Shown here piece by piece: positions 44,849-47,800 of a stretch of 64,000 bases of DNA (positions are counted from its first letter, which is position 1; each line of letters opens with the position of its first letter). Source of the stretch: Escherichia coli (GTDB taxonomy: Bacteria > Pseudomonadota > Gammaproteobacteria > Enterobacterales > Enterobacteriaceae); the NCBI RefSeq assembly GCF_016903815.1, contig NZ_CP069973.1; one strand, written 5' to 3'. Made by a program: the position numbers.

Positions 44849-47800
44849 CCCGGCGATAGTAAATTTCTTCTTTCAGGTGACCAAAGAAATTCTCCATTAC
44901 CGCATTATCAAGACAGTTGCCCTTGCGCGACATGCTCTGCACTAACCCTTTGTCTGCCAGGGCAGACTGATAACTTTTTATCCGGTAATGCCACCCTTGA
45001 TCACTGTGGAGCAGCGGTTTTTCTCCTTCTGCAAGGCTTTCCAGCCCCTTATTTAACATGCGCTTCACCAGCTCCTCTGTAGGCCTGCAGGCAGTTTCCC
45101 ACGCCACGATTTCCCCGTTAAACAAATCAAGTATCGGGGACAGGTACAGTTTTTGTCCGCCAGCCCTGAATTCGGTGATATCTGTCACCCATTTCTCACA
45201 GGGAGCTTCCGCTTTGAACTGCCGCTGAAGGATATTTTCTGCAGCGAGTCCCATATTTCCCCGGTAAGACCGGTATTTCTTCAGGCGCACAGGAGACTTC
45301 AGGCCGAGCTGTTGCATCAGTTTTCGCACTGTTTTGCCACTGAACTTAAGACCTCTTTTCTGAAGCTCACAATGGATCCGCCGGTACCCATAACATCCCC
45401 GGTGTTCATGGAAGATGGAGGCTATGAGCTGTTTCACATCAGCATACTTGTCCTTAGCCTTCTGCAGTGACAGCTGGTAGTACAGCGTGCTTCTGGCCAG
45501 CCCTGCAGCCTTTAACAGGTCAGACTGGCAGTGTCCGCACCTCAGGCTCCGGATGACTTTCGTTTTTTCTCCAGCTCCTGGCGCTTTTTTTCCAGGAGGT
45601 GCTCCTGCATGGCTTTCAGATATGCATTTTCTGCGCGAAGATAACGCAGCTCATTCTTCATCTCTTCCGGCGTCATGTTTGCCTCGTTTTCATGGGTATC
45701 ATCAGAACGGGTCATGCATTTCTCCTTCCTGCGCCTGATAAAGGCCTCATTACCAGATTTGCGGTAGCCTTTTATCCAGTTTTTAACCGTGTTGTGGCTG
45801 GGAATGTTAAACCGGGCAGCTACCCGGGGTAGAGACTCAGAATGCCCGAGAGCATAAAGAACCACGCAAAGTTTATCTTCAGGAGAATAGCTACGCCTGT
45901 GTCTGCAATCCAGTGCCCGAGGACCGTGAAGAAGAAAAAGATTAATCCAGTGTGAGAGGCTGGTGTGAGAAAGTTGAAAGAGTTTTGCCGTAGAAATGAT
46001 GCCTGCATGACCAGCCAGGTAATGATTTACAGCGGCAAGTTTTACTTCAAATGAATGTTTCATAAACTGCACCTTCAGATGTCAGATTATGTCCAACATT
46101 TGGGGTGCAGTTCATGGCGCGTCTTATCAGGCCTACATATCCGCGCCTATTATCCGGCAACCACCGTTTACCCCGTCACCACCTCACCCGCCGGTGGCGT
46201 TTCAAGCAGTTCCAGCATAGTACGGGCGATTTCACGCTCACCCATCACTACCTGATTTGCCCCACGTTCGGTGATATACGCCACTTCATCGTCATAATGG
46301 GCGCGGGCAATAATCTCAATATCCGGATTTTTCGCGCGGGCAGATGCCACAATCTCGCCCGCTTCATAACCGTTGGGAATCGTCAGGATCAGCCATTTAG
46401 CACATTCCAGATGCGCCAGTTGCATAATTTCTTCGTTCGCCGCATTGCCCAATACTGCGCGGACCCCGCGCTCTCGCAGTTCATCAACACGGGTTCGTGA
46501 CGTCTCAATCACCACTAAAGGAATATCAGAGGCGAGCAATTTCTCCCCCAGCAGGCTGCCTACACGACCGTAACCTACCAGTAGCGCATGGTTGCAAATA
46601 TCCACTGGGATCTGCTTCTCTTCTTCGATAGCCTCTTCCAGCGTCTGCTCTTCCAGCGTTTCGGTCTTCGCCAGATATTTCTCCAGCAGCGCAAACAGGA
46701 CCGGGTTGAGCATAATCGACAAAATCGCCCCTGCCAGTACCAGGTTCTGCCCGGCTTGCGGCAACAGATCCAGCGCCATGCCCAGTCCCGCCAGGATAAA
46801 CGCGAACTCACCAATTTGCGCCAGGCTGGCGGCGATAGTTAATGCCGTACGTTGGGAGTGACCAAACAGTCGCACCAGGAAAAACGCGGCTAACGACTTA
46901 CCAAACAGAATAATCGCCAGCGTCGCCAGCACTGCCAGCGGTTGCTGAATCAGAATTAACGGATCAAACAACATCCCGACGGAGACAAAAAACAGCACCG
47001 CAAACGCGTCGCGCAATGGCAGCGTATCGTGGGCGGCACGGTGACTCAGTTCAGACTCGTTCAGTACCATCCCGGCAAAGAACGCACCGAGTGCAAAGGA
47101 GACATCAAACAGCTCCACCGCACCAAAGGCAATCCCTAACGCCAGCGCCAGCACCGACAGGGTAAACAGCTCACGGGAACCGGTTGCTGCGCTGCGTGCC
47201 ATAATCCACGGCACCAGACGGCGACCTACCAGCATCATAATGGCGATAAATGCGATCACCTTGCCGATGGTGATCCCCATATCGACAGCAAGAGTGGCAA
47301 AGCCCACATCGCCTTGTTCCATCATTCCTGCCACTGCGGGCAGCAACACCAGCGTCAGAACCATTACCAGGTCTTCCACAATCAACCAACCGATGGCGAT
47401 TTGCCCACGCTGACTGTCTATTAATTGCCGTTCTTCAAGTGCGCGCAGTAACACCACGGTACTGGCGGTGGAAAGGCATAAGCCGAACACGATACCGGTC
47501 ATTAACGACCAGCCCAGCACGGCGGAGAGCGCCATACCCAGCAGCGTCGCCACGGCTATCTGGGCGATCGCACCGGGAATGGCGATGGCCTTTACCGCCA
47601 TCAAATCCTTGAGCGAAAAGTGCAGACCCACGCCAAACATCAACAGAATGACGCCCAGTTCAGCCAGTTCCGGCGCAAGCTTGGTATCGGCAACAAAGCC
47701 CGGAGTGAATGGTCCTGCCAGCACACCCGCTAACAGATATCCCACCAGAGGAGAAATACGTAGTTTATTGGCCAGCATGCCGAGGATAAAGGCGAGCACA

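What the first reader, a model, noticed from the sequence alone, without database searches (positions are those of the whole stretch)
45570..45600. Programmed -1 frameshift window of the IS transposase
On the minus strand the orfA frame contains ctg gaa aaa aag cgc; slipping -1 on A AAA AAG continues into the orfB frame without a stop and yields a full OrfAB with the DDE domain. The ORF track shows orfB starting at an internal Met (240 aa), which understates the real fusion product of about 400 aa.
Basis: seen in the sequence. Interest (0 to 1): 0.3.

Follow-up and report, generated by a model that had tools for sequence, protein, structure and literature searches.

The report
IS1397 transposase programmed -1 frameshift site
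This is the ordinary, already catalogued ribosome-slipping site (A AAA AAG) that lets the known E. coli insertion sequence IS1397 join its two overlapping genes into one 449-residue transposase.

Summary
On the minus strand, orfA (46063..45542) reads ctg gaa aaa aag cgc. The heptamer A AAA AAG lies at 45590..45584, in the X XXY YYZ phase, inside the 106-nt orfA/orfB overlap. A -1 slip runs without a stop to 44715 and gives a 449-aa OrfAB (not about 400) with HTH, HTH_21 and rve (DDE) domains.

The element is IS1397 itself: 1432 bp at 44683..46114, IS3 family, IS150 group. It sits in the loop of a REP/palindromic unit between ybaL and gsk. Identical DNA in many E. coli genomes is annotated by NCBI as an "IS1397 family transposase, programmed frameshift". 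The exact fusion protein is in NCBI (WP_148937218.1).

Sharma et al. 2014 (PMC4066793, Tables S4/S8) already list this site, its upstream SD-like sequence and the same 38-nt downstream hairpin that I found independently. They class the frameshift as "safely inferred", not demonstrated.

Three small additions:
- The site lies 9 codons downstream of the conserved IS150-group position.
- A second A-run (45569..45562) is a weak alternative slip site.
- Most deposited proteins carry Pro161, which comes from where the annotation places the join; a true slip gives Ala161.

Verdict: real, already known, low interest.

The parts
44683..46114 (-). Complete IS1397 copy (1432 bp), ends 5'-TG...CA-3'
   Evidence: The element and its short flanks (1501 nt) are 100% identical to loci annotated as IS1397 in at least 25 E. 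coli genomes. The boundaries come from comparison with empty sites. There is only one copy in the window.
46090..46114 (-). Left terminal inverted repeat (TGAACTGCACCCCAAATGTTGGACA)
   Evidence: Alignment of the two ends gives 21 of 25 matches.
44683..44707 (-). Right terminal inverted repeat (reverse complement TGAACTGAACCCCAAAACCTGGACA)
45542..46063 (-). orfA, 173 aa, ATG 46063 to TGA 45544-45542. It encodes HTH domains and a Leu-heptad C-terminus.
   Evidence: The NCBI CDS starts at the same ATG.
44715..45650 (-). orfB reading frame (-1 relative to orfA), open from 45650. The first conventional start is GTG 45437 (the 240-aa ORF). It encodes HTH_21 and the rve/DDE core.
   Evidence: DDE residues are D295, D355 and E391 with K398 in OrfAB numbering, conserved with IS150-group relatives.
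45584..45590 (-). Slippery heptamer A AAA AAG (0-frame codons gaA AAA AAG). The proposed tandem -1 slip re-reads G45584.
   Evidence: The resulting fusion is identical to WP_148937218.1. The site is listed as cluster A_AAA_AAG_5 / IS1397 in PMC4066793 Table S4.
45602..45606 (-). [quoted passage not shown]
   Evidence: It falls inside the 6-17 nt interval used by Sharma et al.. Their Table S8 gives SD = 1.00 for the IS1397 cluster. Its function is inferred.
45543..45580 (-). Downstream hairpin, 38 nt, spacer 3 nt, -12.4 kcal/mol (CAGG-AG-CUGGAGA...UC-A-UCCGG-AG-CCUG). It can extend to 45584..45536 at -19.3 kcal/mol.
   Evidence: It is more stable than 97.5% of 38-nt windows in the IS and has z = -3.5 against mononucleotide shuffles. 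Its size, spacer and first stem are the same as in PMC4066793 Table S8.
45562..45569 (-). Second A-run, G AAA AAA C (0-frame gag aaa aaa cga), in the apical loop of the hairpin. It is a weak alternative slip site.
   Evidence: It corresponds to the conserved Glu-Lys codons of the orfB frame in IS150, ISKpn8 and the pRHB23 element. The fusion made at this site is not in the protein collection.
46115..46136 (-). Left half of the interrupted REP/palindromic unit (GTAGGCCTGATAAGACGCGCCA). Its last 4 nt, GCCA, are one copy of the imperfect 4-bp target duplication.
44665..44682 (-). Right half of the interrupted palindromic unit (GCAAGCGTCGCATCAGGC). Its first 4 nt, GCAA, are the other copy of the target duplication.
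   Evidence: The empty sites in strains XJ6.1 and K-12 read ...GACGCGCCAGCGTCGC... and are 4 bp shorter.

Best explanation
The region is the recoding window of a complete copy of IS1397 (IS3 family, IS150 group).

Most ribosomes translating orfA stop at 45544-45542 and make the 173-aa OrfA, a DNA-binding and regulatory protein. A fraction slip. With tRNA-Lys in the P and A sites on A AAA AAG (45590..45584), both tRNAs move back one base and re-pair with AAA AAA. Translation then continues in the orfB frame to 44715. The product is the 449-aa OrfAB transposase, with junction ...LLEKK-APGAGEKTKV...

Two flanking elements are likely to raise the slip frequency. One is an SD-like AGGAG 12 nt upstream, which can pair with 16S rRNA. 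The other is a 38-nt hairpin starting 3 nt after the motif.

Shown here: the sequence, phase, open frame, domain content, identity with IS1397, and the presence of both flanking elements. Inferred from established knowledge of IS150, IS911 and dnaX: the frameshifting itself, its efficiency, and the roles of the SD-like sequence and the hairpin.
For: - The heptamer is in the correct phase and the -1 path is open.
- The fusion has HTH_28, HTH_Tnp_1, HTH_21, rve and rve_2 domains and scores 386 bits against NCBIfam NF033516, IS3 family transposase.
- The DDE triad and the downstream K are conserved with IS150-group relatives.
- The exact fusion sequence is WP_148937218.1.
- Five IS150-group relatives (IS150, ISKpn8, an E. 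coli pRHB23 element, ISEnfa3, a B. thuringiensis element) all carry an in-phase A AAA AAG followed by a hairpin.
- The hairpin is more stable than 97.5% of equal-sized windows in the IS.
- Sharma et al. 2014 list IS1397 orfA as cluster A_AAA_AAG_5, marked '[true]', with SD 1.00 and a 38-nt hairpin at spacer 3.
- The same paper reports A_AA.A_AA.G among the most efficient heptamers in E. coli.
Against: - No experimental demonstration for IS1397 was found. Sharma et al. call it 'safely inferred'. The primary IS1397 papers (PMC94167, PMC95333, PMC169884) are not held in the library.
- The 3-nt spacer is shorter than the 6 nt of the IS150-group relatives.
- The 181-nt region as a whole does not fold better than shuffles, z = -1.06.
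- IS1397 copies are too similar to each other for covariation or synonymous-site tests (aln_div 0.02; 1-5 differences per CDS).
- A second A-run with its own possible downstream structure lies in the same overlap.
Confidence: 0.9

Rival explanations
1. The frameshift takes place, wholly or partly, at the second A-run (gag AAA AAA cga, 45569..45562). The A-site tRNA-Lys would slip on the tetramer A AAA. The product would be an equally long 449-aa OrfAB with junction ...EKKRQELEKK-TKVIRSL...
For: - The run lies inside the overlap, and a slip there also reaches orfB without a stop.
- The zero-frame RQELE extends the helical Leu-heptad region, whereas APGAG does not (reading of the sequences).
- A 62-nt structure of -23.4 kcal/mol can start 5 nt after it.
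Against: - It is not a canonical X XXY YYZ heptamer, because the P-site tRNA would re-pair with GAA.
- Tetramers gave about 10-fold less frameshifting than the best heptamer and need a strong stimulator (PMC4066793).
- The A-run is explained by the conserved Glu-Lys codons of the orfB frame, which IS150 and ISKpn8 (GAAAAAG) and the pRHB23 element also have at the homologous place.
- The nearest SD-like sequences are immediately adjacent (GGAG) or 6 nt before the first A of the run (AGGAG). The first is outside the 6-17 nt stimulatory interval and the second only at its lower edge.
- That fusion sequence is absent from the protein collection.
Confidence: 0.06
2. OrfAB is made from mRNAs that lost one A through RNA polymerase slippage on the A7 run (45591..45585), not through ribosomal frameshifting.
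For: A run of 7 A is present. From general knowledge, some IS elements use transcriptional realignment on long A or T runs. A +1 transcriptional slippage case in the IS3 family (IS1447) appears in the literature search.
Against: - From general knowledge, efficient transcriptional slippage needs runs of about 9 or more bases, and 7 is short.
- The run is in the exact phase needed for tandem tRNA slippage, ends in G, and is flanked by an SD-like sequence and a hairpin at distances that matter for ribosomes.
- Relatives have only A6G.
Confidence: 0.03
3. The two-ORF arrangement is a decayed transposase gene carrying a frameshift mutation in a dead copy. The heptamer is coincidental.
For: None specific. 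A mechanical ORF list shows only separate 176-aa and 240-aa ORFs.
Against: - The same 0/-1 arrangement with the same window is found in all seven other IS1397 copies examined, at at least five distinct chromosomal sites.
- It is also found in five distant IS150-group relatives.
- Both frames are otherwise intact, and the terminal repeats and a target duplication are present.
- Only about 0.006 in-phase A6G heptamers are expected by chance.
Confidence: 0.01

Closest known systems
IS1397 (IS3 family, IS150 group; E. coli; inserts into palindromic units of BIMEs)
   Same: This is that element. The DNA is 100% identical to loci annotated as IS1397. It is 1432 bp long, has two 0/-1 ORFs, and carries an A AAA AAG heptamer, an SD-like sequence and a 38-nt hairpin as tabulated by Sharma et al. 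2014. It is inserted in the loop of a palindromic unit, as the literature describes for IS1397.
   Different: Nothing of substance. This copy's mechanistic fusion product has Ala161, whereas most deposited protein records have Pro161. The DNA is the same; the difference comes from where the annotation places the join. The 4-bp target duplication is imperfect (GCCA/GCAA).
IS150 (insA/insB/insAB) and its group (ISKpn8, ISEnfa3 and others)
   Same: About 42% amino-acid identity. The domain order and the DDE motif with K are the same. The heptamer A AAA AAG is the same, and it is followed by a hairpin whose loop holds the Glu-Lys A-run and whose 3' arm overlaps the conserved ..LR.. codons.
   Different: In the relatives the heptamer sits in the conserved 'AYLKK' motif. 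In IS1397 that position reads 'AYLKA' and the heptamer lies 9 alignment columns downstream. The spacer is 3 nt rather than 6, and the stem is interrupted 4+7 bp rather than a 10-11 bp perfect first stem. IS1397 has an upstream SD-like AGGAG that the relatives lack.
dnaX and IS911 -1 frameshift signals (A AAA AAG with upstream SD-like sequence and downstream stem-loop)
   Same: The same three-part layout: an SD-like element about 10-12 nt upstream, A AAA AAG, and a downstream hairpin. The real dnaX signal is present in this same window at 36633..36697.
   Different: These are unrelated genes. In dnaX the shift shortens the product (gamma against tau); here it lengthens it. There is no Rfam family match at the IS1397 site.

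Membership tests
IS3 family insertion sequence | Two consecutive, partly overlapping ORFs in relative phases 0 and -1 | tested here: met
   orfA is 46063..45542. The orfB frame is open 45650..44715, in the -1 phase, with a 106-nt overlap.
IS3 family insertion sequence | Slippery motif (A AAA AAG type) in the overlap, in the orfA phase | tested here: met
   45590..45584, codons gaA AAA AAG
IS3 family insertion sequence | DDE (rve) catalytic core with DD(35)E and a K/R seven residues after E | tested here: met
   Pfam rve at 2.9e-21. NCBIfam NF033516 at 386 bits against a cut-off of 160. D295, D355, E391 and K398 align with IS150-group relatives.
IS3 family insertion sequence | Imperfect terminal inverted repeats ending 5'-TG...CA-3'; length about 1.2-1.55 kb | tested here: met
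   The element is 1432 bp. The repeats match at 21 of 25 positions, and the ends are TGAAC...GTTCA.
IS3 family insertion sequence | Short (3-4 bp) direct target duplication | tested here: inconclusive
   The occupied site is 4 bp longer than the empty sites, but the two copies differ at one base (GCCA/GCAA).
IS3 family insertion sequence | OrfAB actually produced by -1 ribosomal frameshifting | not testable with these tools
   This needs a protein or reporter experiment. Sharma et al. 2014 call it 'safely inferred' for IS1397.
IS1397 (the specific element) | Near-identity of DNA and transposase to the named element | tested here: met
   100% identity over 1501 nt to loci annotated 'IS3-like element IS1397 family transposase'. 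The exact protein is named IS1397 family transposase. The ISfinder reference sequence itself could not be consulted.
IS1397 (the specific element) | Insertion into the loop of a REP/palindromic unit | tested here: met
   The flanks rejoin to GTAGGCCTGATAAGACGCGCC-AGCGTCGCATCAGGC, an uninterrupted palindromic unit in the empty sites of strains XJ6.1 and K-12. This target preference is described in PMC1525189.
IS150 group of the IS3 family | Closest relatives are IS150-group elements; classified as grpIS150 | tested here: met
   The best non-IS1397 matches are IS150, ISKpn8 and ISEnfa3 at 42-45% identity. Sharma et al. list it as 'Fam IS3/grpIS150/IS1397'.
IS150 group of the IS3 family | Frameshift heptamer at the conserved 'AYLKK' position with a hairpin 6 nt downstream | tested here: not met
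   In IS1397 the heptamer is 9 alignment columns downstream and the spacer is 3 nt. This is a positional difference, not a formal criterion for the group.

The most novel reading that the evidence does not exclude
IS1397 may show turnover of a recoding signal inside one IS group. The ancestral 'AYLKK' slip site was lost. A new A AAA AAG arose 9 codons downstream, with a new 5' hairpin arm and an added SD-like stimulator. The nearby second A-run may then serve as a second, minor slip site, so that two OrfAB isoforms differing in 5-6 linker residues are made.
Probability: 0.1. Interest if true: 0.2.

Novelty: already known. Interest (0 to 1): 0.05.

Why it matters
It matters little beyond correct annotation. 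Recognising the frameshift means the element is called as one intact 449-aa transposase gene of an active, REP-targeting insertion sequence, not as two fragments or a pseudogene.

The practical points are minor. The biologically expected junction residue is Ala161, while most database entries carry Pro161 from the annotation join. Direct experimental proof of frameshifting in IS1397 also appears to be missing from the literature I could read.

Tried and rejected
- Primary IS1397 papers (PMC94167, PMC95333, PMC169884) are not held, so I could not read what their authors said about the frameshift. A full-text search for IS1397 plus 'frameshifting' found nothing.
It was useful only for the junction-peptide census. 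I ran no further search on an element that is already known.
- Folding the whole 181-nt region gave no significant signal, z = -1.06. Only the local hairpin stands out.
- A pseudoknot check found no complement of 5 nt or more to the hairpin's apical loop within 140 nt downstream.
- Rfam has no family hit at the site.
- I first set the right end of the IS 7 bp short, at 44690. I corrected it to 44683.
- I briefly suspected that most copies carry A AAA AAC, because most proteins have Pro161. Reading their DNA showed the heptamer is identical and that Pro comes from a join re-reading C45583.

Full report
**Observation.**
Read on the minus strand, the window contains ...cac ctc ctg gaa aaa aag cgc cag gag ctg gag aaa aaa cga aag tca tcc gga gcc tga. 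The codons gaa, aaa and aag occupy 45592-45590, 45589-45587 and 45586-45584.

orfA runs from ATG 46063 to TGA 45544-45542 and encodes 173 aa. The -1 frame is open from 45650, after a TGA at 45653-45651, to the stop at 44717-44715. The overlap is 106 nt. Re-reading G45584 gives a 449-aa protein with no stop.

From base composition, about 0.006 in-phase A6G motifs are expected in the 35 codon positions of the overlap. The only correction is the size of the fusion: 449 aa, not about 400.

**What the element is.**
The 1501 nt around the site are 100% identical to chromosomal loci in at least 25 complete E. coli genomes, and 3627 of 5426 genomes have a match. That CDS spans exactly 46063..44715 in window coordinates and lies between ybaL and gsk.

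It carries HTH_28, HTH_Tnp_1, HTH_21, rve and rve_2 domains. It scores 386 bits on NCBIfam NF033516, IS3 family transposase, against a cut-off of 160. The catalytic D295, D355 and E391, and K398, align with IS150-group relatives.

The element is 1432 bp (46114..44683). It ends 5'-TG...CA-3' and its terminal repeats match at 21 of 25 positions. There is only one copy in the window.

**Insertion site.**
The flanks are the two halves of a REP/palindromic unit. In strains XJ6.1 and K-12 the same intergenic region reads ...GTAGGC(C/A)TGATAAGACGCGCCAGCGTCGCATCAGGC... without interruption, and it is 4 bp shorter than the rejoined flanks of the window. The insertion is therefore in the loop of the palindromic unit, with an imperfect 4-bp duplication (GCCA | IS | GCAA). 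Targeting of REP loops is the published hallmark of IS1397 (PMC1525189).

**Mechanism.**
The best-supported model is standard tandem -1 slippage of two tRNA-Lys on A AAA AAG. This makes OrfAB with junction LLEKK-APGAGEKTKV, while non-shifted ribosomes make OrfA.

Two candidate stimulators flank the motif:
[quoted passage not shown] This is inside the 6-17 nt interval that Sharma et al. 2014 used because it has experimental support.
- A 38-nt interrupted hairpin lies at 45580..45543, with a 3-nt spacer and -12.4 kcal/mol. It can extend to 45584..45536 at -19.3 kcal/mol. It is more stable than 97.5% of all 38-nt windows of the IS and has z = -3.5 against mononucleotide shuffles.

I derived these elements before reading the supplement of Sharma et al. 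2014. Its Table S8 lists for cluster A_AAA_AAG_5 (IS1397 orfA): SD 1.00, hairpin 1.00, size 38 nt, spacer 3, first stem 4 bp. That is the same structure. Their Table S4 marks the cluster '[true]', with a footnote that for this cluster -1 frameshifting 'can be safely inferred' rather than having been demonstrated. The sequence features are therefore shown, and the frameshifting itself remains an inference, though a very safe one.

**Comparison with relatives.**
The nearest non-IS1397 relatives in the plasmid collection have 40-45% identity: IS150, ISKpn8, an E. coli pRHB23 element, ISEnfa3 and a B. thuringiensis element. All five carry an in-phase A AAA AAG in the conserved motif 'AYLKK'. In the four with a G-C-closed stem (IS150, ISKpn8, the pRHB23 element and the B. 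thuringiensis element), the hairpin starts 6 nt later. Its arms co-vary: GCCUUAGCUC/GAGCUAAGGC against GCCUUGGUUCA/UGAACUAAGGC against GCCUUAGUUCA/UGAAUUAAGGC. ISEnfa3 has only a weak hairpin, -5.8 kcal/mol at spacer 7.

In IS1397 the homologous position reads 'AYLKA', and the heptamer lies 9 alignment columns further on, 'AYLKAMQEHLLEKK|'. The spacer is 3 nt, and an SD-like sequence is present that the relatives lack. The overall layout is kept: heptamer, 5' arm, a loop holding the Glu-Lys A-run, and a 3' arm over the conserved ..LR.. codons.

**The second A-run.**
The run gag AAA AAA cga at 45569..45562 also lies in the overlap, and a slip there would also give a 449-aa fusion. It is not a canonical heptamer. 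It matches the Glu-Lys codons that IS150, ISKpn8 and the pRHB23 element have at the same place in the orfB frame. It sits in the hairpin loop, and its fusion sequence is absent from the protein collection. A 62-nt structure could follow it, so I keep it as a minor rival at about 6%.

Transcriptional slippage on the A7 run and 'dead copy' readings are unlikely. The other IS1397 copies examined have the same window, and so do the distant relatives.

**A small annotation point.**
Of the 129 homologues in which the junction motif was found, 107 read KK-PPGAG and only about 10 read KK-APGAG. The DNA of copies encoding the Pro form is identical at the heptamer. A join that re-reads C45583 reproduces the Pro form exactly, and a join that re-reads G45584 reproduces the Ala form. 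Pro161 is therefore a product of where the annotation places the join. Tandem slippage predicts Ala161.

**Verdict.**
The finding is real and correctly interpreted, and it is already known. It is IS1397's catalogued programmed -1 frameshift site, which standard pipelines annotate. Interest is low.

Noticed in passing
window 36633..36697 (+), heptamer 36652..36658: The classic dnaX programmed -1 frameshift element is in the same window. It gives an Rfam RF00382 hit of 96.8 bits and consists of AGGGAG, then A AAA AAG, then a stem-loop. It has the same heptamer and three-part layout as the IS1397 site.
   Followed up: partly
window 46115..46136 and 44665..44682 (flanks of the IS); second palindromic unit about 44617..44650: IS1397 interrupts the loop of a REP/palindromic unit in the ybaL-gsk BIME. 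Empty sites in strains XJ6.1 and K-12 are 4 bp shorter. The 4-bp target duplication is imperfect (GCCA on one side, GCAA on the other).
   Followed up: yes
window 45583..45584 (junction codon; OrfAB residue 161): Most deposited IS1397 transposase sequences have Pro161. That residue can only be obtained by a join re-reading C45583. A tRNA slip on A AAA AAG predicts Ala161. The DNA is identical in both cases, so the common database sequence probably differs from the real protein by one residue.
   Followed up: yes
window 45584..45632 compared with L002-L006: The IS1397 slip site is not at the position conserved in other IS150-group elements ('AYLKK'). It lies 9 codons downstream, with a shorter spacer and an SD-like sequence that the relatives lack.
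   Followed up: partly
window 45599 (minus-strand codon cac, His): Six of the seven other IS1397 copies examined have T instead of C here (CAC to CAT, synonymous). The position lies between the SD-like sequence and the heptamer. It was the only difference seen in the frameshift window among those copies.
   Followed up: no
window 8500..8595 (-), 19903..19999 (+), 51810..51893 (+): Three Rfam gathering-level hits: sraA sRNA, the small SRP RNA (ffs) and sroB sRNA. These are ordinary E. coli chromosomal features. No tRNA genes were found in the window.
   Followed up: no
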